From Alphaproteobacteria bacterium UBA6376 (GTDB taxonomy: Bacteria; Pseudomonadota; Alphaproteobacteria; Rs-D84), in contig DJQW01000002.1 of NCBI GenBank assembly GCA_002437665.1, forward strand, positions 80,364 to 144,363: a DNA stretch of 64,000 nt, written 5' to 3'. Numbering within the stretch: the first letter of the stretch is position 1; the number at the start of each line of letters is the position of its first letter. The notes under the pieces were generated by a model that was not told where the DNA came from, did not search any database, and worked only from the letters and a program-made list of their open reading frames with translations. Made by a program: the position numbers and the translations under genes. Below, piece by piece: positions 1-18,899 of the stretch.

Positions 1-2121
1 CAATCTGATATAATTGCGCCCGTAGGACTTGCGCCGGCGTTATGGTTGCGGCTAGACATCTAATTCCAATCTGATATAATGTGCGACCATCAAGTTCACG
101 GACAAGATTCGTTGCGGCTAGACATCTAATTCCAATCTGATATAATGCATTAAAAATAAGGATAGAACATGATGAAGTTGCGGCTAGACATCTAATTCCA
201 ATCTGATATAATCCAGACGATAAAGTGGACGCGTTGAATGAGGTTGCGGCTAGACATCTAATTCCAATCTGATATAATTGAAATGATAAAACACGCGCCA
301 GCGGTCAAGTTGCGGCTAGACATCTAATTCCAATCTGATATAATGGCTGTGCCACGGCGTAACCAAAAGGAAAAGTTGCGGCTAGACATCTAATTCCAAT
401 CTGATATAATGATAGTAGACGAATACTATGAATAGGAGTAGTTGCGGCTAGACATCTAATTCCAATCTGATATAATCTGTTGGACCAGTACATTAAGATT
501 AAAACAGTTGCGGCTAGACATCTAATTCCAATCTGATATAATAAAAACGTGCACAATAGCACACATAAACCAGTTGCGGCTAGACATCTAATTCCAATCT
601 GATATAATAGAACATGAAAAAAACTTACAATGAAATAAGTTGCGGCTAGACATCTAATTCCAATCTGATATAATCAAGAGATAAAAGACAATGCCGCGAG
701 CATTGTTGCGGCTAGACATCTAATTCCAATCTGATATAATTGCAAGGCAATCAAAAATTCACTCACTGCGGTTGCGGCTAGACATCTAATTCCAATCTGA
801 TATAATCTTGATTTTCTTGATTAAATTTGAAATCAGTTGCGGCTAGACATCTAATTCCAATCTGATATAATTCAGGGTCTAAAATAGGGGCGCGCCATGC
901 TGTTGCGGCTAGACATCTAATTCCAATCTGATATAATTTGTTCAGGTTTGTTTGTAGCAAGTTTTTTGTTGCGGCTAGACATCTAATTCCAATCTGATAT
1001 AATAAATCTGAATAAATCCAGTGTCGCGGGGCTGTTGCGGCTAGACATCTAATTCCAATCTGATATAATGCCGAAACTTGGGCATCGCTGGTTATAAACG
1101 TTGCGGCTAGACATCTAATTCCAATCTGATATAATGTCTATCACTTGCAGGCGAACGACAGCACCGTTGCGGCTAGACATCTAATTCCAATCTGATATAA
1201 TTCAGCCGTCCGCCGCCTGCCCAGCGTTTCTGTTGCGGCTAGACATCTAATTCCAATCTGATATAATCCGCCCAGTTGGCGGAAATTGACGCAATAAGTT
1301 GCGGCTAGACATCTAATTCCAATCTGATATAATCAAGGTTTTGAAATCAGTTTTGTGTGTTTTGTTGCGGCTAGACATCTAATTCCAATCTGATATAATT
1401 ATTGGAAAGAAAATAAAGATAAAATAATAGTTGCGGCTAGACATCTAATTCCAATCTGATATAATTTAAAAAACTGATAAAAGAATCGGGCATTGTTGCG
1501 GCTAGACATCTAATTCCAATCTGATATAATGCTGAACTGCAGTATTTGACATGCGCTCCTGTTGCGGCTAGACATCTAATTCCAATCTGATATAATAACC
1601 AACGCAGACATTGAAAATGAAACTTCGTTGCGGCTAGACATCTAATTCCAATCTGATATAATAAAAACAGAGAACTGATAATACAACAAATAGTTGCGGC
1701 TAGACATCTAATTCCAATCTGATATAATTTCACGGAACTGTGAACGCGGCATAACATTGTTGCGGCTAGACATCTAATTCCAATCTGATATAATTGCCTT
1801 GCAGGCGGTGTACCCGACGCCGTGTTGCGGCTAGACATCTAATTCCAATCTGATATAATAATGCCTTTGTCAGTGCAACGTCTTTAATAGTTGCGGCTAG
1901 ACATCTAATTCCAATCTGATATAATTGTTTGTTTCACGTGTTTGTGCTGCTCCTGGTTGCGGCTAGACATCTAATTCCAATCTGATATAATCTACTTCTC
2001 AACTGCATTACCAGAACCGCGTTGCGGCTAGACATCTAATTCCAATCTGATATAATTCTGGGGGGGTGGCAATGGCGATTAAATGGTTGCGGCTAGACAT
2101 CTAATTCCAATCTGATATAAT
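1..2121 (+). CRISPR. CRISPR array: partial repeat at 1-14, then 32 complete 36-bp repeats (GTTGCGGCTAGACATCTAATTCCAATCTGATATAAT) at 45-80, 111-146 ... 2086-2121, separated by 29-30 bp unique spacers. The array continues beyond the window start.
   Basis: Exact 36-bp direct repeats with a ~66-bp period and unique 29-30-bp spacers were counted directly in the sequence. The repeat length, spacer length, adjacent cas9/cas1/cas2 and a matching tracrRNA anti-repeat indicate type II-C. Each repeat contains TAGACA-N16-TGATATAAT, an extended -10 promoter. Confidence 0.97.
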
Positions 2122-2136
2122 ACATATCAACAAAAT

Positions 2137-2163
2137 CCCCAGTTTTCTGGGGATTTTTGCTAC
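2137..2163 (+). terminator. Intrinsic terminator at the downstream end of the CRISPR array (AAAATCCCCAGTTTTCTGGGGATTTTTG).
   Basis: A GC-rich hairpin (CCCCAG/CTGGGG) followed by a T-run lies immediately after the last repeat and before the cas1 promoter. Confidence 0.7.
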
Positions 2164-2281
2164 ATAACAAAAAAATAAAACGCCCTATTCCACCAGTAAT
2201 ACGATTCGTTTTCTCTATTTTTTTCATCCTGTTGCACGCTACAAGTGTTGACAAAATAAAAAATCGTCCTATATATACAAC

Positions 2282-3181
2282 ATGCAAACAAATATTATAG
2301 AAATTTCTAGTGACAATCGCGAACTATCTGTTCGACGCGGCTTTTTGTGCATTAAAGAACACGGTTGTCTTATTGGCGAAGTACCGTTGGACAGCATATG
2401 TGCCATTATGACAACAGGACGCGCCATTATTTTTACACAAGCCATGATGGCAGCACTGTGCGAAAACGGGATTCCATTGGTCATTATAGGAAATAATTAT
2501 AACCCCATAGGCATAATGACGCCACTGGTTGGCCAAAATCGCCAAATGGCAGTGCAACACATTCAAATAAAAACATCACGGCCACTGGAAAAACAACTGT
2601 GGCGACGTATTGTCCAAGAAAAGATTCGCAACCAATCGCGGATACTGGACAAATACGGGAAAGACAACCGTATCAAACATATTCCTGCGGCTGTATTATC
2701 TGGCGACAGCAACAACATGGAAGGAGTTGCCGCCAGAATGTACTTTACCAGTTTATTCGACTCTGATTTTTTACGTGATCACAACGCCGGTGGAATCAAT
2801 GCGTTTTTAAATTATGGTTATGCCATTTTACGTGGTGCTATGGCACGTTTAGTTGTGGCCAGCGGTTTGAACCCATCATATGGTATAGAGCATCACAATC
2901 AAATGAACCCCATGTGTTTGGTTGATGATTTGATGGAGGTGTATCGCCCAATCATAGATGCAATCGTCTATGAAATATTCAACGGCACAGACAATCCTAA
3001 ACGTGAGCTGACGCCAGATGACAAACGAAAAATGTCTGCAGTATTAGAAATGAGCATCCCAACACGAGGCGGTGGAATTTCACCACTGTCCACAATAATG
3101 CAACGCGATGTATGGAACTTTGTAAATTCACTGAAAGAAAAGAAAAACAAATTGGATTTTGAAAATGTCATTAAAAACTGA
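2282..3181 (+). CDS. cas1: Cas1 integrase (type II).
   Basis: 299-aa ORF with a Cas1-like sequence and a conserved acidic/His region (...GIEHHNQMNPMCLVDDLMEVYRP...). It is adjacent to the array and cas2. A -35 TTGACA and a TATATA -10 lie upstream. Confidence 0.9.
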   Translation: MQTNIIEISSDNRELSVRRGFLCIKEHGCLIGEVPLDSICAIMTTGRAIIFTQAMMAALCENGIPLVIIGNNYNPIGIMTPLVGQNRQMAVQHIQIKTSRPLEKQLWRRIVQEKIRNQSRILDKYGKDNRIKHIPAAVLSGDSNNMEGVAARMYFTSLFDSDFLRDHNAGGINAFLNYGYAILRGAMARLVVASGLNPSYGIEHHNQMNPMCLVDDLMEVYRPIIDAIVYEIFNGTDNPKRELTPDDKRKMSAVLEMSIPTRGGGISPLSTIMQRDVWNFVNSLKEKKNKLDFENVIKN

Positions 3182-3503
3182 TGGACTAAAATACATGTGG
3201 ATGATGGTTATGTTTGATTTGCCGACAGATACGAAACGCGAACGTCGCGAGGCGTCCAAGTTTCGCAATTTTCTGCAAGATTTGGGCTTTTCAATGGCGC
3301 AATATTCGGTTTACATGCGTTTTACCGGCACACGCGAAAATTCACAAAAATATGTACATGCTGTAAAACGCAACAACCCACAAACAGGCGATGTAAACAT
3401 ATTGTTCTTCACTGACACGCAGTTCGGTGATATCATTCATCTGGACAAGGCAACTGCCCCAAGTGTATTAGCCACACGCCCAGGACAGTTACAATTATTT
3501 TAA
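3159..3503 (+). CDS. cas2: Cas2. The true start is possibly the ATG at 3195 (MWMMVMFDLP...).
   Basis: ~100-aa protein with the Cas2 N-terminal beta-strand motif (MVMFDLPTDTKRERR...). It overlaps the cas1 3' end, as is typical for a cas1-cas2 operon. Confidence 0.85.
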   Translation: MKMSLKTDGLKYMWMMVMFDLPTDTKRERREASKFRNFLQDLGFSMAQYSVYMRFTGTRENSQKYVHAVKRNNPQTGDVNILFFTDTQFGDIIHLDKATAPSVLATRPGQLQLF

Positions 3504-6500
3504 TCCCAATATTTTTCCAGACGGACTGACACAAACCTTGCGCGCTTTGTGTTCCTGTAACGATGTTGCGCTGGCAATCCATGATTTTGTATCAGCATCT
3601 TCCTTGGCAATGAAATGTGGACGCAGGTACACAGTGCCGCTGCTGTTCAATTTTTTTACACGAAAAACAACATTTACTTTATCTGTTTTCTCTATTGCAC
3701 ATTGATGTGCAACTGTTTCCACCAGCCCTTTTGGTAATTTTGGATCGTCTTTGGAAAATTCCGCCATTACCATATCATTTATACGCAAACTCATTATGCG
3801 CTTTGCTGTGGCATATTTATGACGCCACAGTGGTGCACCAGCATTTAATTGGGCGTTATAATTAGATAAAATCTCCACCTGCCAGCGACCACGCAATTTT
3901 GGATAGCGGGTATCATCATCACGAATTTCAAATATCTCTGCACAGAAATTATTACCACCAACATACCACTTGTACGCCTGCTTGGCAGCATCTTGAAATT
4001 CTTGCAACAAGTGTTTTTCTTTCTCTTGTTGAACAGCACGCAATTTTTTATCCACAATTCCACTGGCAACGCCAGTATTTACATACCAATTCAAATACGC
4101 GGCACGGTAAACGTCACGCTGTTTTTTAGTTCTGAACACAGGCACGTATGTCGTAACATCGACCCCCGTTTTATACATACGAACCTTGCGTATATTTCGC
4201 ATTGCACACCAATCCAAAAACTTGATTGCAATGTCTGGTTCTTCGTTTGCAACACCAGCATCATTCAAAAACATTTGCAGTGTTTTCGGATTCACATTTT
4301 TGAAATCCTTTGCAAACGCTTTTTTGTCTTTATCTGTTGTGGGCAGTTCTTCACGATGCGACATAACCGCATTGACGCCACATCCCCCATCTTCAAAACA
4401 TTCCAGATTATACGCCGTATCCTCATGCAAACATCCAACCGTACTATGTGCATCTTTCGGATTCTTTTGAGATTGACGGTATGAAATAATAGTATTCTCG
4501 CACCGCATTTTGAAATCAAAATAATCAAACCCAGGGAAAGGGGTATGCATATCAGATTTTGCATCAGCTAGTTTCCGCAATATGTTCTCATCAGTACAAG
4601 CAATGACAAAAGCATCAATCGCATGATGAATGTGATTGCCACGGTATTTGGATTCTTCCGCCTTATTCTTCCACCAATTCAAATGCCATTCATCGCGCAA
4701 ACTAGCCGTCAACCGCCCTGGCATACCGTTCACACGATTTTTGTCTGCACACACATGTTGTAAATATGTGACCGCCATACGTGTCATAAATCGCGTATCA
4801 TTCATTGCACGCGCAATGCACTCTTTGCCTTGCAGAAACACATCCATCGCCCCACGATTAAAACGCCATTTCGTAGCATCTGGCAAATTTTGAGCACGCG
4901 CAACCACATCCTCGTATTTCCATGGTGACTTTGGGTCTGAAAAAGCTTCATCTGGGCTACGGTTTCCTTTGAACCGGTTGGCAACGGCCGCAGAAATCGT
5001 TTTATTTGCCATCGAGTCATCAAGTGTACGTGAAAAAGGCAATATATGTTCTATTTCAAACTCTGGGCTAAACAGTTTTTCCTTACTAATTATCTCACCA
5101 GTATAAACGCATCTACGATCCAATGGACTTTTTCCCAAATTCTCCCACAACTTATATTTCTGTATATTTTCACGACAAACCCGAACGCCCATGGCGACCA
5201 ATTCAGTGGCAATACGGTCATTTTCACGCTTATTCGCGGCCTGTTGTTTTTCTATTTCTGCACGTTCATCTGCACCAGCTGATACATCACGCCCCATTTC
5301 AATATTTATTGCATATGGCTCGCCATCAAAACGCGCAATCAAATCGTTGACAACTGCGCGTAACTGGTTCAATGCAATGTGAACCGTGGCATTCATCGTA
5401 CGATAACGCCCCATCTTATCTTGAACCAACGATGGACGTAAAGCCATGACATCGCCATAGTATGGCAATGTATCTAAATGCACTATTCCCCTATCAGCAT
5501 GATCATAACCTGCTTCTTTTGCCGCAATGTGATACAAATGCCCCTGTTCCAAGAACGGCAACATTTTTTGCATTGCACACACAGACAAATTTGCAACCCC
5601 ATCTTCAAACGGTTGCTGAATTAATTTTTCTGCTTTATCTTGCGAAATACCATATTCATGCGCCAGATAATCCACCAAATCAGAATCGGACAATTCATCA
5701 TCATTCAGATGTGCCAAAACCTGCGATTTTACATTATCTGTACAAGCACGCCAGAAATCTGCCAATTCACATTCAGCAAATGCAAATGCCGTTGCATCAA
5801 CATCCATATCCTTACGCTTTTCAGATTCCAGATTAAATTTTGTATTACGTGATAAACCCAACAACTTCTTAACTTCCGCAAATGTTATCTTGGGACGCCC
5901 CGACTTATCACGTTTTACCCCACAAAATGTAGCCAGTAAAGCATCTTGCAACTTTTCGCGCTGTTCTGCGGTCAATTCCTTTATTTCGCCATTGTTGATA
6001 ATTCGTAATTGATTTATCTGTTGCAGAACACGAAAACGCTGAAACACAGGTTCAAATTTATACGCACGTGGCTGATCTAATTCAAACATGCACGTTCCAA
6101 TTTCTGGTGGCACCAACGGTCGCTGATGAAATATAGCATATTCAAACTGTTGCCGCATGTCATCTGACATATTTTGTACTGAACATATACGATTAAATTC
6201 GTCAAGGTACATATCACGCGTCGGATAAAGAGCACCATCTTTGATTTTATTACCATCAAATTGATCTGCAAACCGATAACGCTTTGAATCCACCTGAAAT
6301 TCACCCAAGGTTTTATCACCTATGGCATCATGCAATGCCAATGTCGCCTTTTTTAATTTGCCACCAGAATCCCCTCTGGTTTCCTTGCGATTACTTTTGA
6401 AACCACGGCGCAATGCCAGATGAAATAGAACACGCCCCAACTCTGCGGACGACAGTTTATCAGAAACCGCCCTTGCACGCAAAACATACGGATCTTCTAA

Positions 6501-6776
6501 TTTGATATCTGCACTAATATCGAAATCCAGACCATATTTATGAATCAATTGCAAGACACGCTTTTTACGTAGCAGTACGCGATCACCACGTCTGCGCATC
6601 TGACGATGTTCACGCCGAATAACATTAATTGGCTTGTGACTCTTCGCATCTCGCCCATCTGGGAATATACGCACCCCCATATCAACCAAACTCGTTATTT
6701 GGTCTGCTTCATTCAGTTCTACGACAGCCCACCCCAACGAGGTACTACCCAAATCCAAACCAATTTTATATTTCAT
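3495..6776 (-). CDS. cas9: Cas9 endonuclease, type II-C, 1093 aa. The RuvC and HNH motifs are intact.
   Basis: N-terminal RuvC-I motif IGLDLGSTSLGWAV (Asp8). HNH motif EIEHILPFSRTLDDSMANKTISAAVANRFKGNRSP. RuvC-III HHAIDA. The size is typical of compact II-C Cas9. No csn2 or cas4 is present. The stop codon overlaps the cas2 stop region by 9 bp (convergent). Confidence 0.95.
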   Translation of the reverse strand: MKYKIGLDLGSTSLGWAVVELNEADQITSLVDMGVRIFPDGRDAKSHKPINVIRREHRQMRRRGDRVLLRKKRVLQLIHKYGLDFDISADIKLEDPYVLRARAVSDKLSSAELGRVLFHLALRRGFKSNRKETRGDSGGKLKKATLALHDAIGDKTLGEFQVDSKRYRFADQFDGNKIKDGALYPTRDMYLDEFNRICSVQNMSDDMRQQFEYAIFHQRPLVPPEIGTCMFELDQPRAYKFEPVFQRFRVLQQINQLRIINNGEIKELTAEQREKLQDALLATFCGVKRDKSGRPKITFAEVKKLLGLSRNTKFNLESEKRKDMDVDATAFAFAECELADFWRACTDNVKSQVLAHLNDDELSDSDLVDYLAHEYGISQDKAEKLIQQPFEDGVANLSVCAMQKMLPFLEQGHLYHIAAKEAGYDHADRGIVHLDTLPYYGDVMALRPSLVQDKMGRYRTMNATVHIALNQLRAVVNDLIARFDGEPYAINIEMGRDVSAGADERAEIEKQQAANKRENDRIATELVAMGVRVCRENIQKYKLWENLGKSPLDRRCVYTGEIISKEKLFSPEFEIEHILPFSRTLDDSMANKTISAAVANRFKGNRSPDEAFSDPKSPWKYEDVVARAQNLPDATKWRFNRGAMDVFLQGKECIARAMNDTRFMTRMAVTYLQHVCADKNRVNGMPGRLTASLRDEWHLNWWKNKAEESKYRGNHIHHAIDAFVIACTDENILRKLADAKSDMHTPFPGFDYFDFKMRCENTIISYRQSQKNPKDAHSTVGCLHEDTAYNLECFEDGGCGVNAVMSHREELPTTDKDKKAFAKDFKNVNPKTLQMFLNDAGVANEEPDIAIKFLDWCAMRNIRKVRMYKTGVDVTTYVPVFRTKKQRDVYRAAYLNWYVNTGVASGIVDKKLRAVQQEKEKHLLQEFQDAAKQAYKWYVGGNNFCAEIFEIRDDDTRYPKLRGRWQVEILSNYNAQLNAGAPLWRHKYATAKRIMSLRINDMVMAEFSKDDPKLPKGLVETVAHQCAIEKTDKVNVVFRVKKLNSSGTVYLRPHFIAKEDADTKSWIASATSLQEHKARKVCVSPSGKILGLK

Positions 6777-6836
6777 AACTGTTTCCTTTCATCTCGTCAT
6801 AAATTCTACAAAATCAATATCTGAAAAGCAAATTAT

Positions 6837-6864
6837 TTGACTTATTATATTAGGACGCTATAAT
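6837..6864 (+). promoter_or_regulatory. Promoter for the tracrRNA (TTGACT-N16-TATAAT).
   Basis: Near-consensus sigma70 hexamers lie directly upstream of the anti-repeat-containing transcript. Confidence 0.6.
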
Positions 6865-6870
6865 TATGGT

Positions 6871-6990
6871 GGTGAAAGAAAATAACACTAAAATCAAGTT
6901 GGAATTAGATGTCTAGTCGTTAATAAGAACCTCTTGCAAGAGAGGAGATTTCACCATTAAAAACGGACACTTCGGTGTCCGTTTATTTTA
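6871..6990 (+). ncRNA. tracrRNA: tracrRNA: anti-repeat at 6899-6923, nexus-like hairpin at 6930-6945, and an intrinsic terminator hairpin at 6958-6989.
   Basis: TTGGAATTAGATGTCTAGTCGTTAA is complementary (one G:U wobble) to the first 20-25 nt of the CRISPR repeat. It is followed by CCTCTTGCAAGAGAGG and AAAACGGACACTTCGGTGTCCGTTTATTTT. It is divergent from cas9. The 5' end is approximate. Confidence 0.85.
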
Positions 6991-6999
6991 CAAAAAATC

Positions 7000-7023
7000 A
7001 CCCCGCGGTGCGGGGTGTTTTTC
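7000..7023. terminator. Bidirectional terminator hairpin (CACCCCGCGGTGCGGGGTG) shared by the tracrRNA and the convergent autotransporter gene.
   Basis: The palindrome is flanked by A-runs upstream and T-runs downstream. Confidence 0.6.
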
Positions 7024-10000
7024 TTAGAAGCGGTATGATCCGGAAACCTTGATATTATGCAGTTGAATATCTTGGTTATACTGGTAACGGTAATCCAGAC
7101 CAATCTGCAAGCCACTGGCCGACAGCATTTCTACGCCACCGCCGATGTTCGCCCACATTGGATCGATATCAATATCATACTTTGTGAACGAATTTGCGAC
7201 CGAGAATTTATATTTCGCGTTGTCTGGCGCGCCCAACACATCGTATTCGATTCCGATTGTCGCATATGGGCGAATCTGGAACCATGCCGATGGATAGATA
7301 CGCTTTTGCGCGGTCAACGAATACCCAGGTGTAAAGATCAGATACCCGTCGGATTCCATGTCCATATAATCGTGGCCACGGGCCTTTTCCGTCAGCGAGA
7401 ATCCAAAGTTATACCCAACGCGCGCATACATATTGCCAACAACATACTGGTTCAGCCAATCATGCAGCAAGCCCCATTCACTGGTGAATGCAACGTCATA
7501 GCCCGTACCATCAATCGCGCCATTTATATATGTCTGGTGACGTGTGGTATCCAACACATGGATGTCCAAGAACGCATTACCATAAACGCGTGTTTTTTCG
7601 CCCAATGTCTGCATCAAATAACCACCCAGACCGATGTTGGTATCTGCAACCTTGACATCAACATTGCCGGCGATGAACGGATTTTCAACGGTATAGCCCA
7701 AATTCATAGAATCCGAGTTGTCCGCCGACATGTGCGATATACGCCCTGTCAACCCCAGAATCAAAGTTTCAGAATGCTGCCAGTCAAATCCACCCGCGAC
7801 GTTGATACGGTTACCATCAACGCGTTTGCCATCGGACACTTTCTGGTTGAACATACCAAATTCCGCATCAACCCATGCCTTTTTCAGGTTGCGGTTACGA
7901 TTCCAGATAAATTCGTCAAACATGCGGTCTTCGAATGAACGGAAATTAGTGTGTTCATTCAAGACAATGCTGCCCACGACCTGTTCGATTTCACGTGGCT
8001 GAACCAAGCGGCTGAAACGTGACAACGCCGTACCATCGCGATTCGTATTATAATCTTCCATACGCTTGTACAGTTCGTTGCCCAACTGTTCCAGATTTGT
8101 GCCACGGAATATCACAGGCAACATTTCCAGCGCATGACGACCATAAAATCCCTTGCCAGCGGCCGCGCCATCCAACATGTCGTCCAACGCGCCTGCGGAC
8201 ATATATTCGCCACTGGTGTGCCCTGGGGTGCGGCCAACAATCGGCTGAATCTTGAACACCTCTACCGGCCCACCAAAGCGTGGATCAAACACCAAATAGA
8301 TACTGTCGTCAATACCATCACCGTCGGTATCACGCACGGTCAGGTATGCAGAATCCGCATCAACCAGCGCACCGCTGAAATAGTCATAACACATCGTGCC
8401 CGTATTGTTGCACACAACAACGTTCAGATTGCGCAGTTTATCGCCCAATTCTGTGATGCCATCGTCTGCATGTACCAGCCAAATTGCATCGCCCACCGTT
8501 GCCAATTCACGCAACGCAACACCAATCTGATCGGTCGCATTTGCAAACCCAGTCGATGGATTACGCGACAGCGTCAAATCAGATGTGAACGCACCATCAA
8601 CCTGAATCAATGCACCCGCATTGCCGTCTGTGGCGTTTGTGATGCGCCCCAGCGTGTTATCGTCCGCCAAACTGACCGATGACCAGTAATTGCGTGTTGG
8701 TGCGGTCAGCACATCACGACGTCTGACATCAACGTACAGGCCACTGTCGTTATCAAACAGATAGTTGCCACCAATCGTCATTTCTTGCAAGCCACCAAAG
8801 CGCGCGCCGCCAGAAACATTACCGGTAACGCCCACGGTCAGGCCCGCGTTTGAATACACACGCATGTTTTTGACGTCAATATTACCCGCAACCGTCAGGT
8901 CAGTCGTATTGATGTCCAGCGCACCCGATGTTTGCTGAATATTACCGCCCACAATCACATTAGACGCAGACAGTGCATAACTGTCGCCGGTGATATTTGC
9001 ATCACGCACCGCGATTGTCCCAGCATAATTCTGGTACAAGTTTTTGACTGTAAATGCACCCGCAGATTTCATACCCGCGCCCGACAATGTTGCCGTGCCA
9101 TTATTGGCAAAGTAATCAACATTTGCCACATCCGCGCCCGATGCAATCGTCAAATCGCCATCATTGTCAACCGCACCCAGTGTCATACCACGTGCCGCAT
9201 TCAGTGTCAAAGTACCCTTGTTTGAAATGCCCCCAAATGCGATGCTGGAATTTTCAGACGAAATCGACGTTGTCGCGCCCGCCGCAACATTCGCCGCGCC
9301 GGTAAATGCGACCGCGTTTTTAACGTCGTATGCAACCGTACCGGTGTCGGCCATCAACGCGCCAGTGGCTGTCAAACTGCCCGCGGTGACGTTTGTGTTG
9401 CCAACAATGCTCAGCCCAGATGCCGCCGCACCTGCAACGTCAGATGCGTGTGTTATGTTACCCGCAACAGAAATCAAATCATCAGACGTGATTGTTGGCG
9501 CATTGATAACCGCACTGCCCCCCGACACGGTCAGCATCGCCATATTCAATTTTTCCGCCGAAATATTCAGTTTCAGATTTGATTCAATCGCACCCGCGGT
9601 AATAGAATCCGCCGCAACCAAATTCAATGTGCCGGTATTGTCAATCTGGCCAATGGTCAGGTCAGACGCACTGTTGATATTGGCGTTACCACTGCTGGCC
9701 AATGCGCCCATATCAATGGTTGCGCCGTTGATTGTCAATGTGCCGCCGTTGCTGGTCTGGCCACCGATTTTAGCGGTGCCCACCGCATCAATTTTAACCG
9801 TGCCATTGGTCGCCAACGCGCCATCCATTGTGAAATCTTGGTGTGACGTCAATGTCAACGTTTTACCATTGGCGATTGTCACGCTGTCAAAAGACATGCC
9901 CCCCACGCTGGTTTCCATGGTGTATTCGTTGCCACTGATAACCATTCCGGTCATCCCCCATGTCGGCGTCGCATCGTTAAACAACAATTCGCCACCAACA

Positions 10001-12129
10001 CTGATATCGCCAGTTGTTGCGGTCAATGATTTCCCAGACAAAACAATCAAACCATTCGTTGTGCCGCGATTCGTCAGTGATGCAACATTTGCATTCGCCG
10101 CCGCAATTTCCAGCCATGCGCCATTGGTTGCCGATGCCGCACCCGCAACATTCAGCGTCTGGCCCGCTGCACGCGATGCATCCGCCGAACCAAATATCAA
10201 ACGCTGGTTTGCATTTGTCGCCAACGCATCACCACCAATGTCCATCAACGACGCGTCCATACGCACCGTACGTGCAGTTGTATCGGTAACGCGAACGTCC
10301 CCGCCAATATTGATTATGCCGTTATTTGATTTCAACACAAACGCCGTTGTTCCGTCCGCCGCAACCGACATGTCGCCCGCATTTGCCGCGGCACTGCCAC
10401 TGGCGATAAAGTTACCATCAATTTGTACCGAATTTTCAACAGTCAGGTTTTTAACCGCACTGCGCAAACTCAATTTACCGCCAGACACAATCATTTTGTC
10501 CAGAATTTGAATATTGCCAATCAGTGCGTTCATTTCAACCGAACCGCCCAATACGTTCAAATTCTTGGCCGAAATATTGTCGCTGGCATTGCCCGAACCA
10601 ATAACCGTCATCGCGCCGGCATTATTTGTCAAATCGCCGCCAATCGTGATATTACGCGCCGTGATGTCCAAGACCCCTTGGTCACCCGCCGACGTGCCGT
10701 TCACAACGTTACCATCAACCGTCAGCGCACCACTGGACGACGCAGATGCCGCCACACGTAAATCACCAGTGTTCGTAACACTTGCCACATTTACTGTATT
10801 ACCGTCGATGCGCATTTTACTGCCATTTGTGTTGGAAACGTCGCCCCCAACAAACGCGCCACCCGCCGCAATCGTTGCATTTGCGTCCGCACCATCACCA
10901 GAAATCGCCCCTGTTGTAATACTCAGACCACGAATTTCCAACGTGCCCGTATTGCGAATCGATGTTGATGTGAAATTACCCGCACTGTTCAATGTCAATC
11001 CGGCAATACCGCCTTGCGGCAAAATCGACGCATTAGAAATCGCACCAAACGACATATCGCCCAGCGTCGTTTCAATGGTCGCCATACCCTGTTTCAGCAA
11101 GATATCGCCCGTCATCTGCAAAGAACCGGTTTTCAACGTGAATTTACCGCTGTCGGTCATATTGCTCCAATCAATATTCTGGGCAATTTTGGTCAGGCCC
11201 GAAATATTCGCAACAAACACACCACTGTTGACGATGGACGCGTTCTGGCCGTTACCACCATTGATGGTCAAACTGTCACCATTGATGTTCATTGTCCCAG
11301 AAGTATCTTCGTTTGTAATTGCGCCTGCAATCGTAATGTCCTTTGCCGACACAGTAACCGTACCTGCGGCCTTGTTTTCCAAACTGCCCGTGGTGTCGGT
11401 ATTGGTCAACGTCAAATTGCCACCCACCGTTACGTTCAGCGAACCCGCAGAATTTTGAATTGTGCCCGATGTAATATCGCCACCCGCTGTAATCTTGCCA
11501 GTGCTGTTCGCATTCTTGTATGTGAACTGCTTCATAGTAATAGAATCAGTTGCATCCAAATTGACGTCAGCATTTGCCCCCGTGGCATTTACATCAATCG
11601 CACCGGTATTGATGGTATTTGCAATGATGCGCAAAGTGTCGTTTGCATTTATCGCACCCGACGTAAATGAATCGATACCACCACCGGCAACACCACTGTT
11701 TGCCGCCACGCTCAGCGCGCCCAGCGCATTTATCGTGCCACCAATCGACACATCCATGCCCGCCGCCGTGCCGTTCTGAATGCCCAGCGTCATGCCAGAT
11801 TTAATTTCCAGATTATTACCAATGACAACATCGCCATCGGACTGGATGGTGAAAGACCCCGTATCGCGCAAAATTGCCAAATCGCCGTTACCGCCCTGAC
11901 CCGTGCCACCAACATAAACCGCGCCCGCGACATTCAAACCATTTGTCGTTGCCCCATCGCCCAAGACCAAACTGGTGTCCGTTGCGTCAATCGTTTTACT
12001 GGCATCGGTTGCGCCGATATTCAGCCCATCTGCAAACGTGGCCGCGCCCGCACCAAAAGGCATCAAGCAACATACAACAGATACTAATTTTTTTGAAAAC
12101 AGAGACATCTTTCTTTCCATTCCTTGCAA
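7024..12129 (-). CDS. Large autotransporter (type Va secretion) with a Gly/Thr/Asn/Ser-rich beta-helical passenger domain and a C-terminal beta-barrel translocator ending ...SGSYRF.
   Basis: N-terminal signal peptide, ~1300 aa of repetitive G/T/N/S/A-rich passenger sequence, and a C-terminal ~300-aa region with alternating aromatic/hydrophobic strands and a terminal Phe. Confidence 0.8.
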   Translation of the reverse strand: MQGMERKMSLFSKKLVSVVCCLMPFGAGAATFADGLNIGATDASKTIDATDTSLVLGDGATTNGLNVAGAVYVGGTGQGGNGDLAILRDTGSFTIQSDGDVVIGNNLEIKSGMTLGIQNGTAAGMDVSIGGTINALGALSVAANSGVAGGGIDSFTSGAINANDTLRIIANTINTGAIDVNATGANADVNLDATDSITMKQFTYKNANSTGKITAGGDITSGTIQNSAGSLNVTVGGNLTLTNTDTTGSLENKAAGTVTVSAKDITIAGAITNEDTSGTMNINGDSLTINGGNGQNASIVNSGVFVANISGLTKIAQNIDWSNMTDSGKFTLKTGSLQMTGDILLKQGMATIETTLGDMSFGAISNASILPQGGIAGLTLNSAGNFTSTSIRNTGTLEIRGLSITTGAISGDGADANATIAAGGAFVGGDVSNTNGSKMRIDGNTVNVASVTNTGDLRVAASASSSGALTVDGNVVNGTSAGDQGVLDITARNITIGGDLTNNAGAMTVIGSGNASDNISAKNLNVLGGSVEMNALIGNIQILDKMIVSGGKLSLRSAVKNLTVENSVQIDGNFIASGSAAANAGDMSVAADGTTAFVLKSNNGIINIGGDVRVTDTTARTVRMDASLMDIGGDALATNANQRLIFGSADASRAAGQTLNVAGAASATNGAWLEIAAANANVASLTNRGTTNGLIVLSGKSLTATTGDISVGGELLFNDATPTWGMTGMVISGNEYTMETSVGGMSFDSVTIANGKTLTLTSHQDFTMDGALATNGTVKIDAVGTAKIGGQTSNGGTLTINGATIDMGALASSGNANINSASDLTIGQIDNTGTLNLVAADSITAGAIESNLKLNISAEKLNMAMLTVSGGSAVINAPTITSDDLISVAGNITHASDVAGAAASGLSIVGNTNVTAGSLTATGALMADTGTVAYDVKNAVAFTGAANVAAGATTSISSENSSIAFGGISNKGTLTLNAARGMTLGAVDNDGDLTIASGADVANVDYFANNGTATLSGAGMKSAGAFTVKNLYQNYAGTIAVRDANITGDSYALSASNVIVGGNIQQTSGALDINTTDLTVAGNIDVKNMRVYSNAGLTVGVTGNVSGGARFGGLQEMTIGGNYLFDNDSGLYVDVRRRDVLTAPTRNYWSSVSLADDNTLGRITNATDGNAGALIQVDGAFTSDLTLSRNPSTGFANATDQIGVALRELATVGDAIWLVHADDGITELGDKLRNLNVVVCNNTGTMCYDYFSGALVDADSAYLTVRDTDGDGIDDSIYLVFDPRFGGPVEVFKIQPIVGRTPGHTSGEYMSAGALDDMLDGAAAGKGFYGRHALEMLPVIFRGTNLEQLGNELYKRMEDYNTNRDGTALSRFSRLVQPREIEQVVGSIVLNEHTNFRSFEDRMFDEFIWNRNRNLKKAWVDAEFGMFNQKVSDGKRVDGNRINVAGGFDWQHSETLILGLTGRISHMSADNSDSMNLGYTVENPFIAGNVDVKVADTNIGLGGYLMQTLGEKTRVYGNAFLDIHVLDTTRHQTYINGAIDGTGYDVAFTSEWGLLHDWLNQYVVGNMYARVGYNFGFSLTEKARGHDYMDMESDGYLIFTPGYSLTAQKRIYPSAWFQIRPYATIGIEYDVLGAPDNAKYKFSVANSFTKYDIDIDPMWANIGGGVEMLSASGLQIGLDYRYQYNQDIQLHNIKVSGSYRF

Positions 12130-12147: not shown

Positions 12148-13476
<1,329 letters not shown>

Positions 13477-13536
13477 TTTACTAGAAATGTAACAAACGGG
13501 GGGCGAAATCGTGCGCCCCCTTTTTTCTGAGGCCCA

Positions 13537-13743
13537 ATGATAACAACGCACCAAATTTTTATTATTGCCAAATACGCAATCGCAGTATTGCTGGCCATTG
13601 GCATATTCTTGGCCCCCGCATGGATTGCGCGCCAAACGGCACGGGGCAAGCAAGATATGATTCTGGTTCGCTTGGGCAGTTGGGTATTCAGTTGGACTGG
13701 CATCGGATGGCTGTGGGCATTATTCTGGGCCAGCAAGAAATAA
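13537..13743 (+). CDS. Small inner-membrane protein resembling the superinfection-immunity (Imm) family.
   Basis: 68 aa with two TM helices and a C-terminal ...WTGIGWLWALFWA motif, similar to the PF14373-type consensus (WT.IGW...ALIWA). An SD (GAGG) is present. Confidence 0.45.
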   Translation: MITTHQIFIIAKYAIAVLLAIGIFLAPAWIARQTARGKQDMILVRLGSWVFSWTGIGWLWALFWASKK

Positions 13744-13920
13744 TTTTTTCATAATCTATAATCGTATCGCCTGCTGTCTAGCCCCCCCCTTGTCATTGCG
13801 AGCGCAGCGTGGCAATCCAGTCAGTAGAGTTGCACCGAATGGCGCACAATATGTATTCTCTATTATCTATGCTCTAAAAAAATGTCCGCGGGTGGCGGCG
13901 GACACAACATCACCACAAAA

Positions 13921-14508
13921 TCACGCACCAGTACTACTGCTGGAATCTGGATTAACCGTACGTTCATAACCCTCGCCATTGTCAATATCGCATTCGGCAT
14001 AACAAACGTCATCAATCATCAAATACCCGTTGGAACATGTGTTGACATCGCAAAGTTCCCAGTCACCATATTTACTACATGTTTGTGTCCCAGAACCCTT
14101 TGTAGTTACACAATCCTGGGTATCCCCAGGGGTGCAATCTGGTTTTTTACATTTTCCTGATGTATGATTCAATTCATAACGATGATGCACATCCTCGCTA
14201 TTAACGTCCAACCACGATTCTTCAACGCATGTAACCTTGTATTGCAACACGGTTGTATCGTCGCAATAACAGTCAACACTAGAAATGTCGGTAATATTTT
14301 TTTCTGTTACTGGGGCATCGTACGAATCAATTTTACAATCGTGGGTATACCATGCTGCGCTACCTTGATTGTCATTCAGCGTCGGCCCGCCACACTTCAA
14401 CCTAATATAACTGCGTGATGCGGCATCGGCATCTTTACTGTGTATAACGCCCACGAATGCCAGCACCGTTGCCCAAAAGCGAAACCAAGATGATTTTATT
14501 TTTTGCAT
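13921..14508 (-). CDS. Cys-rich secreted protein, paralog A1 (195 aa, ~16 Cys).
   Basis: Signal peptide MQKIKSSWFRFWATVLAFVGVIHSKDADA. It is a paralog of 15832..16398 (nearly identical signal peptide, conserved C-terminus ...C.NGYL.IDD.CY.EC..D.G.G.E...SSSST.A). A terminator hairpin lies downstream. Confidence 0.75.
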   Translation of the reverse strand: MQKIKSSWFRFWATVLAFVGVIHSKDADAASRSYIRLKCGGPTLNDNQGSAAWYTHDCKIDSYDAPVTEKNITDISSVDCYCDDTTVLQYKVTCVEESWLDVNSEDVHHRYELNHTSGKCKKPDCTPGDTQDCVTTKGSGTQTCSKYGDWELCDVNTCSNGYLMIDDVCYAECDIDNGEGYERTVNPDSSSSTGA

Positions 14509-17378: not shown

Positions 17379-18899
17379 TTACTCGTCACAGCCATACATT
17401 CCGCATGGTTCATTCGCCGAATATTCTTCGACAACAATCGGTGCGGCCTTGGCTTCTTCGGTATAGTGCGTTTCTTTGACCACACGCACACGACGGTTTG
17501 CCGCGTTTGCGACACCATCGGCGGTTGGCACGGCCAAATCTTCCTCGCCGGACGAAACCGCAACAATCTGGCTGGCTGGGATGCCGTATTTAATCAGCAT
17601 TTTCTGAACCGCCTCTGCACGACGGCCACCCAATGCATAGTTATAATCCTTGCTGCCCATTGTGTCGGTATGACCAACCACGGACACCTTGATATTCTTG
17701 TTGTTCTGGGTTGCATCCGCCAATTTACGGATTAAATCCTGATATTCTGGTTTGATTGTCGCCTTGTTAAAATCAAAGCGGATTTCAAACACCTCTTCCA
17801 TCACGTGCTGTTTTGGTTCCAACGGAATCTGCTGAACCTTGATGATGGTCTTTTCATTTGTCGCCGCCTGAATTTGATCCAAGCGTGAATTGATTGCCGC
17901 CAATTCCGCGCGCATCGCCATCATCATGTTGATAAATTCTTCACGTGTGACCAATTCATCACCAATCTGTGGGATTTCTTCGGTGGTCTGCTGTTGCTGT
18001 GGTACGCAATCCGCATTATTCACGTTATTGCCACAATCCGCCGCCAAAACCGCGGTGTTGTTGCTGTTAGACATGCTCTTGTCACCGCCGTAAATATTCT
18101 GGTTAAACACCACTGGTTGAACCGGCACAGGGTTTATCAAGTGCTGTGGCACATTTACATTGTTCACAATAATAACCCCCTCGCGCGCACGACCCGCGCC
18201 ATTTACCGCACGCAGTGAACGTGTATCTGGGTAATAATCGGTTGGAACATTGCTGGCGTTTGTGATGCGCGATTTAACCGCAACTGTTTCAGACGCCGTT
18301 GTTGTTGCAATGGCAGTGTTCTGTTGTTTCGTATTTACAATCTTCCCCCCCTGACAATCGCGCAATGCGGTCAACGTACGCTGGAAACGATCGCGACATT
18401 CACGCGCCGTACCATCCTGACCACTGGCCGCCGCCGACAACCAGCAATCAAATTTTGCCTGTGCTTCGGCCGCCAACTGTGGATTATTTGTGGTTGCATC
18501 GTTTTTGAATTGTTCAATCAAATCGTTATACGCCGCCGACAATTCGAACGCGGTCTGTTGATCTTCGACCGGCCAATTATCCAATGTTTCTGGGAATGGC
18601 ACTTCGCCACTGAATGCCGCCACGGCCTTTTGCGCGAACAGTTCGCCCATTTCAGAATACCCACTGGTGCGCGCATTATAAATAGCATAAGAACGATAAT
18701 TCATCGCCAACTGATTCAAAAAGGAATCCTGATGTGGTGCGGAATAAACGTCCAACTGTTCCACATAGTCAACCGTCGGTGTGTCAATGGGTGCATAATC
18801 GTCATTCTTTTGACCTGCGCACGCCGCCAGTGCAACGACAGACGCCGCCATCATCATGCGTGATATAATCCATGTTGATACACAAGATTTATTTTTCAT
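17379..18899 (-). CDS. OmpA-family lipoprotein/peptidoglycan-associated protein with a C-terminal OmpA domain.
   Basis: The lipoprotein signal (…VALAACAG) follows the internal Met MKNKS. The C-terminal OmpA_C-like region (...NKNIKVSVVGHTDTMGSKDYNYALGGRRAEAV...RRVRVV) was recognized. Confidence 0.8.
   Translation of the reverse strand: MKNKSCVSTWIISRMMMAASVVALAACAGQKNDDYAPIDTPTVDYVEQLDVYSAPHQDSFLNQLAMNYRSYAIYNARTSGYSEMGELFAQKAVAAFSGEVPFPETLDNWPVEDQQTAFELSAAYNDLIEQFKNDATTNNPQLAAEAQAKFDCWLSAAASGQDGTARECRDRFQRTLTALRDCQGGKIVNTKQQNTAIATTTASETVAVKSRITNASNVPTDYYPDTRSLRAVNGAGRAREGVIIVNNVNVPQHLINPVPVQPVVFNQNIYGGDKSMSNSNNTAVLAADCGNNVNNADCVPQQQQTTEEIPQIGDELVTREEFINMMMAMRAELAAINSRLDQIQAATNEKTIIKVQQIPLEPKQHVMEEVFEIRFDFNKATIKPEYQDLIRKLADATQNNKNIKVSVVGHTDTMGSKDYNYALGGRRAEAVQKMLIKYGIPASQIVAVSSGEEDLAVPTADGVANAANRRVRVVKETHYTEEAKAAPIVVEEYSANEPCGMYGCDE

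What the first reader, a model, noticed from the sequence alone, without database searches (positions are those of the whole stretch)
1..6990. Non-canonical type II-C locus architecture
The order is [array]->[cas1->cas2]-> then <-[cas9], with [tracrRNA]-> upstream of cas9. cas1-cas2 lie between the array and cas9 and are co-directional with crRNA transcription. cas9 is inverted relative to cas1-cas2, and its stop region overlaps the cas2 stop by 9 bp (3' convergent overlap with no terminator). An intrinsic terminator (2137-2163) insulates cas1 from the array's promoters. The canonical II-C order is cas9-cas1-cas2-array in one operon. This looks like an inversion of the cas9-tracr module.
Basis: seen in the sequence. 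Interest (0 to 1): 0.55.

Follow-up and report, generated by a model that had tools for sequence, protein, structure and literature searches.

The report
Flipped cas1-cas2 in type II-C CRISPR
This is a working CRISPR-Cas9 locus of an uncultured gut alphaproteobacterium in which the two spacer-acquisition genes (cas1-cas2), not cas9, were turned around once in an ancestor, a rearrangement inherited by a whole clade and interesting mainly as a tidy variant of a well-known system.

Summary
The order is array(+) 1-2122, cas1(+) 2282-3181, cas2(+) 3165-3503, cas9(-) 3495-6776, tracrRNA(+) ~6871-6988. The cas2 and cas9 stops overlap by 9 nt, and a terminator hairpin follows the last repeat.

It is not an assembly artefact. 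The same layout occurs in two or three further assemblies of the same or a near-identical organism. It also occurs in all 13 distinct related loci examined (Cas9 53-94% identical), nearly all with the same 9-nt junction.

In 65 canonical relatives, the array is antisense to cas9. In the close canonical relatives where it could be located, the tracrRNA also diverges from cas9, exactly as here. Only cas1-cas2 is flipped.

Cas9 and Cas1 trees agree on a single event in one clade. The flip cut about 15 codons off cas9, whose stop is now the antisense of a cas2 Leu codon. It also placed the cas1 ATG 6-7 nt after a clade-invariant TTGACA-N16/17-TATAT promoter in the CRISPR leader, with no Shine-Dalgarno sequence. 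I infer a separate, leaderless cas1-cas2 transcript.

The terminator is ancestral. The three newest spacers match viral contigs perfectly, so the system is active.

This is a new architectural variant of a known kind, of modest interest.

The parts
1..2122 (+). CRISPR array. It holds 32 full 36-nt repeats and one partial repeat, and is cut by the window start. The complete array in the identical contig L081 has 42 repeats and 41 spacers. Each repeat carries its own promoter.
2132..2158 (+). Intrinsic (bidirectional-type) terminator hairpin, AAAAUCCCCAG-UUUU-CUGGGGAUUUU, about 10 nt after the last repeat. It is ancestral.
   Evidence: Fold of -16.4 kcal/mol with z = -5.5. It is present, with different stem sequences, in 9 of 9 flipped-clade loci and 25 of 52 canonical loci tested.
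2202..2208 (+). Conserved leader motif CGATTCG, about 80 nt from the last repeat. Its function is unknown.
   Evidence: GATTCG is invariant in alignment A2. It is also present in canonical sisters L013 and L014 and in L084 and L087.
2248..2281 (+). Clade-specific cas1 promoter: TTGACA (2248-2253), 16 nt, TATATA (2270-2275), then 6 nt to the cas1 ATG. There is no Shine-Dalgarno sequence. The predicted transcript is leaderless.
   Evidence: TTGACAAA and TATAT are invariant or near-invariant at a fixed distance from the ATG in 11 loci and in basal members L084, L086 and L087. The element is absent from canonical sisters.
2282..3181 (+). cas1 (299 aa), type II / NMENI subtype.
3165..3503 (+). cas2 (112 aa). 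It overlaps the end of cas1 by 17 nt.
3495..3503 (.). 9-nt convergent overlap of the cas2 and cas9 stop regions. It reads TTATTTTAA on + and TTAAAATAA on -. This is the inversion junction.
   Evidence: It is conserved in 10 of 11 loci and in L084-L088.
3495..6776 (-). cas9 (1093 aa) with RuvC and HNH motifs intact. Its C-terminus is about 15 aa shorter than in canonical sisters.
6780..6831 (-). cas9 5' region. It contains the Shine-Dalgarno sequence AAAGGA (about 6783-6789) and a promoter-like TTGCTT-17-TAGAAT (6831-6803), back to back with the tracrRNA promoter.
   Evidence: Sequence. Conservation is shown in alignment A5. This is a promoter-like assignment by inspection.
6837..6864 (+). tracrRNA promoter, TTGACT-16-TATAAT.
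   Evidence: It is conserved in A5.
6871..6990 (+). tracrRNA, with predicted ends. The anti-repeat is at about 6893-6923, followed by a stem-loop and a terminator hairpin at 6961-6984 plus Us.

Best explanation
This is an active type II-C CRISPR-Cas locus of an uncultured gut alphaproteobacterium. In its ancestor, the cas1-cas2 block was inverted in place, once.

The ancestral layout, kept by the nearest relatives, is <-tracr | cas9-> cas1-> cas2-> | leader | <-array. Flipping only cas1-cas2 gives <-tracr | cas9-> <-cas2 <-cas1 | leader | <-array. That is the window read on its minus strand.

What the sequence comparisons show:
- The left breakpoint lay just upstream of the cas1 ATG, which in relatives overlaps the cas9 tail. 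cas9 therefore lost about 15 codons. It now ends in two codons and a stop that are the antisense of the last cas2 codons.
- The right breakpoint lay between the cas2 stop and the leader. The cas1 ATG therefore came to abut leader DNA.
- A clade-invariant sigma-70-type promoter sits there, with its -10 element 6-7 nt from the ATG and no ribosome-binding site.

What I infer:
- The locus now runs as separate units: repeat-borne crRNA promoters, a leaderless cas1-cas2 mRNA, a monocistronic SD-led cas9 mRNA, and the tracrRNA.
- The ancestral terminator after the last repeat stops the last repeat's promoter from reading into cas1.
- Adaptation and interference genes are transcriptionally uncoupled and converge head-on.

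Whether that uncoupling is adaptive or neutral is not known.
For: - Orientation: 10 GTDB species-level loci with Cas9 >=59% identity, plus 3 more distinct loci at 53-57%, have cas1-cas2 on the strand opposite to cas9. All 65 loci with Cas9 <=46% identity have them on the same strand.
- Fixed landmarks: the array reads ATTATA...GCAAC on the cas9 strand in every locus. The anti-repeat lies upstream of and divergent from cas9 in both groups.
- Single event: outgroup-rooted NJ trees of Cas9 and of Cas1 both recover the 13 flipped loci as one clade, with the same canonical sister group L010-L014 (+L054).
- Left junction: the 9-nt overlap is conserved. The Cas2 tail ...QLF* encoded by CAATTATTTTAA is the same in canonical sisters. 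Their Cas9 runs on as ...DNGFDTKWS..., and their cas1 ATG overlaps that tail behind a GGAG SD.
- Right junction: the leader terminator, the CGATTCG motif and the T-run are shared with canonical sisters. TTGACA-N16/17-TAtNNt-N6/7-ATG occurs only in the flipped clade and is invariant there.
- Not an artefact: an identical locus occurs in L081 (254-kb ENA contig) and L082. A 94%-identical locus occurs in L083.
- Activity: spacers 39-41 (nearest cas1) match viral contigs with 0 mismatches. Spacers 2, 26 and 27 match the same contigs with 3-4 mismatches. The 3' flanks are A-rich.
- Literature: II-C arrays are antisense to the cas operon, acquire spacers at the last repeat, and carry promoters in the repeats (PMC3936727; PMC12080349).
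Against: - There is no transcript data. The promoter, the leaderless start and the terminator function rest on sequence, conservation and folding only.
- No inverted repeats or other breakpoint signature remain, so the inversion mechanism is unknown.
- The trees are simple NJ trees without support values. With midpoint rooting, the Cas1 tree did not keep the flipped clade exclusive.
- Only the best 80 of 402 related genome loci were examined. Independent flips or reversions elsewhere cannot be excluded.
- A functional benefit of the rearrangement is not demonstrated.
Confidence: 0.8

Rival explanations
1. One reading: the cas9-tracrRNA module was inverted, while cas1-cas2 and the array kept their ancestral orientation.
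For: cas9 is on the strand opposite to cas1-cas2. If one assumes that arrays are co-directional with cas1-cas2, cas9 looks like the odd one out.
Against: - In 65 canonical relatives the array is antisense to cas9, and the tracrRNA diverges from cas9, exactly as in the window.
- Inverting cas9-tracr in a canonical locus would put cas9 head-to-head with cas1. It would not put it tail-to-tail with cas2.
- The tracr-cas9 intergenic region (both promoters and the SD) can be aligned between the flipped clade and the canonical sisters.
Confidence: 0.03
2. Assembly artefact: a mis-join of contigs at the cas2/cas9 junction.
For: None beyond the unusual junction. Short-read assemblies do collapse the array (L082 keeps a single repeat).
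Against: The same junction appears in independent assemblies from ENA, Logan, JGI and NCBI. It also appears in at least 13 distinct species-level loci with 53-94% Cas9 identity, where both reading frames are intact across the junction.
Confidence: 0.01
3. Module replacement: the original cas1-cas2 was lost, and a foreign cas1-cas2 cassette with its own promoter was inserted in the opposite orientation.
For: - Adaptation modules are known to shuffle between CRISPR systems (general knowledge).
- The cas1 promoter is clade-specific.
Against: - Cas1 and Cas2 of the clade are closest to those of the same canonical loci that hold the closest Cas9. Identities are Cas1 52-60% and Cas2 67-73%, against <=44% and <=57% in almost all other loci (the exceptions L054, L016 and L062 also branch next to the clade).
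- The Cas2 C-terminal codons are identical to those of the sisters.
- The Cas1 N-terminus M-x-x-N-I-I-E is collinear with the sisters.
- The leader between cas1 and the array is ancestral.
Confidence: 0.06
4. The structural history is the same (cas1-cas2 inversion), but the rearrangement is selectively neutral. It would be a frozen accident, rescued by chance creation of a promoter, with no regulatory role for the convergent overlap or for the leader-embedded promoter.
For: - No conserved terminator or conserved antisense element was found at the junction. The hairpin 3' of the cas9 stop changes register between loci and has inconsistent z-scores.
- Gene-order changes are common in this neighbourhood. 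For example, the SSB-Rho-arginase flank is inverted in L001 relative to L081.
Against: The layout, the exact junction and the promoter geometry have been retained across a clade as deep as 53% Cas9 identity, with no reversion seen. However, retention is also what a neutral, hard-to-reverse event would give.
Confidence: 0.5

Closest known systems
Canonical type II-C CRISPR-Cas (Neisseria meningitidis / Campylobacter jejuni type)
   Same: - Minimal gene set of cas9, cas1 and cas2, with no csn2 or cas4.
- 36-nt repeats that each carry an extended -10 promoter.
- Array transcribed antisense to cas9.
- Leader and newest spacers at the last repeat, next to the cas genes.
- A tracrRNA with an anti-repeat.
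(PMC3936727; PMC12080349)
   Different: - cas1-cas2 are on the opposite strand to cas9 and converge with it (9-nt overlap). They are not co-transcribed downstream of it.
- cas1 has its own leader-embedded promoter and no SD.
- Cas9 lacks the last ~15 residues found in its nearest canonical relatives.

Canonical sister loci of uncultured gut Alphaproteobacteria and allies (L010-L014, L054; Cas9 41-46% identical)
   Same: - Closely related repeats (GTTGCTACTAGACATTTAATTCCAAT...).
- The same tracr-cas9 divergent promoter region.
- The same leader, with the terminator hairpin and the CGATTCG motif.
- The same Cas2 tail, ...QLF*.

   Different: They keep cas9->cas1->cas2 on one strand. In them the cas1 ATG overlaps the cas9 tail and follows a GGAG SD.
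Rearranged type II-A loci of Mycoplasma noted by Chylinski et al. 2013
   Same: They are a precedent for orientation changes of a cas gene within a type II locus. [quoted passage not shown]
   Different: They belong to a different subtype (II-A) and a different lineage. The gene reported as reoriented there is cas9, with a change in tracrRNA position. Here cas9 and the tracrRNA are unchanged and cas1-cas2 is flipped.
Rho-independent terminators flanking II-C arrays (Feussner et al. 2025)
   Same: The complete array in L081 has a terminator hairpin between the upstream SSB gene and the first repeat. This matches the described way of insulating II-C arrays from outside transcription (PMC12080349).
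   Different: The terminator in the finding is at the other end of the array, downstream of the last repeat. It stops transcripts that leave the array rather than those that enter it.

Membership tests
Type II-C CRISPR-Cas | Cas9 effector with RuvC and HNH nuclease domains | tested here: met
   TIGR01865 hit at 6e-156 over the full length, plus Pfam HNH_4, RuvC_III and Cas9_a. Catalytic-motif residues D8, H577, N600 and H718/D721 are invariant in the clade alignment. The nearest solved structures are II-C Cas9s.
Type II-C CRISPR-Cas | cas1 and cas2 present; no csn2 (II-A) and no cas4 (II-B) | tested here: met
   Cas1 matches TIGR03639 (type II/NMENI) and Cas2 matches TIGR01573. PADLOC assigns Cas1_II and Cas2_II. 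The locus is bounded by SSB on the array side (L081) and by a 1701-aa protein with no Pfam hit on the tracrRNA side. No other gene lies between the components.
Type II-C CRISPR-Cas | tracrRNA with an anti-repeat complementary to the CRISPR repeat | tested here: met
   22 of 24 positions pair. A promoter and a terminator flank it. It is conserved across the clade and its sisters. Expression was not tested.
Type II-C CRISPR-Cas | Repeat-embedded promoters and an array transcribed opposite to cas9 | tested here: met
   TAGACA-16-TGATATAAT occurs in each repeat. The array is antisense to cas9 in the window and in all relatives. The PAM lies on the 3' side in this orientation only. Transcription itself was not measured.
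Type II-C CRISPR-Cas | Conserved co-directional cas9-cas1-cas2 operon (Chylinski 2013 definition: 'a conserved cas9, cas1, cas2 operon') | tested here: not met
   cas1-cas2 are on the opposite strand and converge with cas9. Gene content and phylogeny still place the locus in II-C. It is an architectural variant, not a different subtype.
Type II-C CRISPR-Cas | Spacer acquisition at the last (cas-proximal) repeat | tested here: inconclusive
   The three cas1-proximal spacers match viral contigs perfectly. Three older spacers match the same contigs with 3-4 mismatches. This fits the expected polarity, but it rests on six protospacers. No related arrays share spacers, so order could not be compared.
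Leaderless mRNA (for cas1-cas2) | Transcription start at or within a few nt of the start codon, with no Shine-Dalgarno sequence | not testable with these tools
   Only indirect evidence exists. The -10 hexamer ends 6-7 nt before the ATG in all 14 loci inspected, and no SD-like sequence is present. By contrast, a GGAG lies about 9-10 nt upstream of cas1 in canonical sisters. Confirmation needs 5'-end mapping.

The most novel reading that the evidence does not exclude
The flip may have created a self-contained adaptation cassette with built-in regulation.

- The cas1-cas2 promoter lies inside the CRISPR leader, about 125-150 nt from the integration site and next to a conserved CGATTCG motif.
- The cassette collides head-on with cas9 transcription, with no terminator between them.
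- Leader occupancy by Cas1-Cas2 or a host factor, or antisense/convergent transcription from cas9, could therefore feed back on spacer-acquisition capacity independently of interference.

Such a circuit has not been described for type II systems.
Probability: 0.15. Interest if true: 0.55.

Novelty: new variant of a known kind. Interest (0 to 1): 0.3.

Why it matters
- Type II loci are usually described as a fixed cas9-cas1-cas2 operon. Here a whole clade of gut alphaproteobacterial II-C systems has run for a long time with the adaptation genes on the other strand and under their own promoter.
- This shows that co-transcription with cas9 is dispensable. It also offers a natural case of uncoupled adaptation and interference expression.
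- The junctions are readable molecular fossils. They include a cas9 stop codon donated by the antisense of cas2, and a cas1 that apparently switched from SD-led to leaderless initiation.
- Practically, annotation pipelines and tracrRNA/array orientation predictors that assume one cas strand would mis-orient such loci.
- The clade also supplies compact Cas9 orthologues (~1090-1160 aa) with a naturally shortened C-terminus and an A-rich PAM.
- None of this changes how Cas9 immunity is understood.

Tried and rejected
1. Inversion signature. I searched 2100-7100 for inverted repeats. No pair flanks either the cas1-cas2 block or the cas9 block. The only meaningful pair is the repeat with the anti-repeat.
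2. Terminator at the cas2/cas9 junction. The + strand has no significant structure (z = -0.2). The cas9-sense strand has a long hairpin just 3' of the cas9 stop in every relative. However, its register differs between loci, covariation in the alignment is weak (-8.6 kcal/mol consensus), z-scores range from -0.2 to -5.0, and there is no U-run. I left this as inconclusive.
3. Acquisition polarity from shared spacers. No spacers are shared between species-level arrays. The 94%-identical contig ends before the array.
4. Origin of the cas1 promoter. The -35 element TTGACAAA resembles the codons for G-F-D-x-K-W of the lost cas9 tail (for example TTTGACAATAAA in L015). The spacing to the ATG differs by ~10 nt and the region is A/T-rich, so homology cannot be shown. 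I kept this only as a speculation.
5. Synteny of flanks with canonical sisters. No flanking genes are shared, so the genomic context cannot be used to polarise the event.
6. The consensus scan tool listed neither the leader terminator, nor the tracrRNA terminator, nor the cas1 promoter. These were established by folding and conservation instead.
7. Rfam gave no significant family in 1-9000.
8. Literature searches for an inverted cas1-cas2 in II-C found nothing. Chylinski 2014 (NAR) is not held in the library.

Full report
**1. What is in the window**

The first 2122 bases are a CRISPR array. The repeat is 36 nt (GTTGCGGCTAGACATCTAATTCCAATCTGATATAAT) and the spacers are 29-30 nt. There are 32 full repeats plus a partial one at 1-14, because the window begins inside the array.

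The annotated elements are as follows.

| Element | Coordinates | Strand | Evidence |
|---|---|---|---|
| Array | 1-2122 | + | |
| cas1 | 2282-3181 | + | TIGR03639 (type II Cas1), 9e-69 |
| cas2 | 3165-3503 | + | TIGR01573, 3e-20 |
| cas9 | 3495-6776 | - | TIGR01865, 6e-156; HNH_4, RuvC_III, Cas9_a |
| tracrRNA | ~6871-6988 | + | |

- The cas2 stop (3501-3503) and the cas9 stop (3495-3497, reverse complement) give a 9-nt convergent overlap.
- Upstream of cas9 and divergent from it, 6900-6923 pairs at 22 of 24 positions with the 5' part of the repeat.
- That anti-repeat follows a TTGACT-16-TATAAT promoter (6837-6864). A stem-loop and a terminator hairpin (6961-6984 plus Us) come after it. This is the tracrRNA.
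- Every repeat contains TAGACA-16-TGATATAAT, an extended -10 promoter, on the + strand. crRNAs are therefore made from the + strand.
- About 10 nt after the last repeat lies a strong hairpin with a U-run (2132-2158; -16.4 kcal/mol, z = -5.5).
- No csn2 or cas4 is present. The neighbours are a 1701-aa protein without Pfam hits and, beyond the array in the full contig, SSB.

**2. It is not an artefact and not a one-off**

- The exact Cas9 occurs on a 254-kb ENA contig (L081). That contig is identical to the window over 2123-7100, has the same spacers, and holds the full array of 42 repeats. The exact Cas9 also occurs on a Logan contig (L082). A 94%-identical Cas9 is on L083. All three have cas9, cas2 and cas1 in the same arrangement.
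- I scanned one genome per GTDB species with a Cas9 profile and located Cas1 and Cas2 by tblastn. All 10 loci with Cas9 >=59% identical to the window (L001-L009, L043) have cas1-cas2 on the strand opposite to cas9. These are uncultured gut Alphaproteobacteria, labelled 'Rickettsiales' or 'Ca. Enterousia' in the records.
- Every locus with Cas9 <=46% identity in which Cas1 could be located has the canonical same-strand order (65 counted).
- More basal members at 53-57% identity (L084-L088) are also flipped.
- The 9-nt overlap (TTAAAATAA in the cas9 sense) is present in 10 of 11 loci. In L006 the cas9 stop has mutated and the overlap is 15 nt. The overlap is also present in the basal members.

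**3. Which part was inverted**

With cas9 set to +, the array in every locus with a detectable array lies beyond the cas genes and reads ATTATA...GCAAC. That is antisense to cas9, and it holds for canonical and flipped loci alike. This agrees with the literature. II-C arrays are transcribed opposite to the cas operon (PMC3936727; PMC3737331). They acquire spacers at the last repeat, and each repeat has its own promoter (PMC12080349).

The anti-repeat lies ~110-150 nt upstream of cas9 on the opposite strand. This is true in the flipped clade and in canonical sisters L011-L014, L016, L022 and L023. The whole tracr-cas9 intergenic region can be aligned between the two groups, including both back-to-back promoters and the cas9 Shine-Dalgarno sequence (A5).

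Relative to these fixed landmarks, only cas1-cas2 changes strand:

- Canonical: <-tracr cas9-> cas1-> cas2-> leader <-array
- Here: <-tracr cas9-> <-cas2 <-cas1 leader <-array

It would place cas9 next to cas1, head to head.

**4. One event, in place**

Outgroup-rooted NJ trees of Cas9 (1003 columns) and Cas1 (298 columns) both recover the 13 flipped loci as one clade. Both give the same canonical sister group, L010-L014 (+L054). With midpoint rooting, the Cas1 tree was less clean.

Cas1 and Cas2 identities track Cas9 identities. This argues against insertion of a foreign adaptation module.

**5. The breakpoints can still be read**

*Left junction.*
- Canonical sisters end Cas2 with ...Q(Y/F)QLF*, encoded by CAATTATTTTAA/G. 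The flipped clade uses the same codons.
- Sister Cas9 continues as ...SPIGDVVDNGFDTKWSIKNDT*, and their cas1 ATG lies inside this tail, behind a GGAG.
- Cas9 of the flipped clade stops at ...VSPTGKILK*. Its last codons and its stop are the reverse complement of the cas2 codons L-F-stop. TTA becomes TAA, and TAA becomes TTA.
- A cut just upstream of the cas1 ATG would necessarily truncate cas9 in this way.

*Right junction.*
- The leader next to the last repeat has a terminator hairpin with A and U tracts, an A-rich stretch, CGATTCG, and a T-run. It can be aligned between the flipped clade and the canonical sisters (A3). It is therefore ancestral.
- By my criteria, hairpin-plus-T-run elements follow the last repeat in 9 of 9 flipped and 25 of 52 canonical loci. 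The stems differ in sequence.
- In the canonical layout this element sits between cas2 and the array and looks bidirectional.

*Promoter.*
- TTGACA-N16/17-TATAT(A/G)-N6-ATG is specific to the flipped clade. TTGACAAA is invariant in 11 loci (A2).
- The basal members have the same geometry with -10 hexamers TATTAA, TATTAT and TATAGT, followed by 6-7 nt to the ATG.
- No SD-like sequence precedes cas1 in any of them.
- The conserved geometry points to a promoter whose start site falls on or next to the A of the ATG. That would make cas1-cas2 a leaderless mRNA. This step is inference, because no transcript data are available.

**6. How the locus most likely works**

*Shown by sequence and comparison:*
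- All components of a II-C system are intact.
- Catalytic-motif residues of Cas9 are invariant in the clade.
- The three spacers nearest cas1 match IMG/VR viral contigs perfectly. Two of them hit the same 5.6-kb contig.
- Older spacers 2, 26 and 27 match the same two contigs with 3-4 mismatches.
- The 3' flanks share an A at position 4 and purines at positions 2-3, approximately N-R-R-A. The 5' flanks share nothing.
- The system is therefore acquiring phage spacers, the newest lie next to cas1, and the inferred crRNA orientation is correct.

*Inferred:*
- There are four kinds of transcription unit: crRNAs from the repeat promoters, leaderless cas1-cas2, SD-led monocistronic cas9, and the tracrRNA.
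- The leader terminator stops the short transcript from the last repeat before it reaches cas1.
- cas9 and cas1-cas2 transcripts have no canonical intrinsic terminator between them. They must end by other means, such as Rho, collision, or the variable hairpin inside antisense cas2.
- That hairpin is present in all relatives, but in different registers and with inconsistent significance. I leave it open.
- Whether uncoupling adaptation from interference, or the head-on arrangement, has regulatory value cannot be decided from sequence. A neutral, hard-to-reverse accident rescued by a promoter explains the data equally well.

**7. Comparison with what is known, and novelty**

By gene content, Cas9/Cas1 phylogeny, repeat promoters, array polarity and tracrRNA, this is a type II-C system. 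It fails only the 'co-directional cas9-cas1-cas2 operon' criterion.

Orientation changes inside type II loci have been noted before, for cas9 in Mycoplasma II-A loci (PMC3737331). Full-text searches found no description of a flipped cas1-cas2 in II-C. The library is limited to open-access papers, and Chylinski 2014 could not be read.

I rate it a new architectural variant of a known kind. It is well supported and neat, but of modest interest, because it does not change the mechanism of immunity.

Noticed in passing
window 2202-2208; also L013, L014 and L011 (two copies in L014 and L011), L084, L087: A CGATTCG motif is invariant in the CRISPR leader, about 80 nt from the last repeat. It is shared by the flipped clade and by canonical sister loci. 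Its function is unknown. It could be a leader-recognition or host-factor site for spacer integration.
   Followed up: partly
L089 (IMGVR_UViG_3300012662_000005) 5304-5332, 7386, 7656; L090 (IMGVR_UViG_3300013902_000158) 69-97, 747, 4415-4444: Six spacers of this array hit two viral contigs. The three newest match perfectly and three older ones have 3-4 mismatches. The 3' flanks (gaaaa, gaaaa, gaaaa, aaaaa, tgaat, cagat) suggest an A-rich PAM of roughly N-R-R-A.
   Followed up: partly
L081 around 17393-17470 (outside the window; upstream end of the full array): The complete array has 42 identical repeats. Upstream of it are the convergently oriented SSB gene and a hairpin-plus-T-run terminator, about 22 nt before the first repeat. 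This fits the insulation of II-C arrays from outside transcription described by Feussner et al. 2025.
   Followed up: partly
L043 (CARVLU010000003.1) 8001-9956: In this flipped-clade locus, only Cas9 residues 456-1090 are matched. No anti-repeat was found, and the repeat is more divergent. Even so, cas1, cas2 and a 13-repeat array remain. It may be a decaying interference module.
   Followed up: no
L002 array (about 13201-13949): The array is interrupted by a ~735-bp insert between two repeats.
   Followed up: no
L001 15247-18354 versus L081 17466-20585: The SSB-Rho-arginase flank next to the array is inverted and displaced in L001 relative to the window's strain. Rearrangements are therefore frequent around this locus.
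   Followed up: no
window 3449-3491 (- strand) and the equivalent positions in relatives: A 13-17-bp hairpin, rich in G-U pairs and therefore strand-specific, lies immediately 3' of the cas9 stop, inside antisense cas2, in every relative. Its register differs between loci and no U-run follows.
   Followed up: yes
window 7024-12129 (-): A 1701-aa ORF abuts the tracrRNA terminator. It has no Pfam hit and its own bidirectional terminator at 6999-7017. It is conserved next to the locus in L081-L083.
   Followed up: partly
L056 4861-5878; L062 6682-7301: Two distant canonical loci carry a second, unrelated CRISPR array upstream of cas9, with different repeat families.
   Followed up: no
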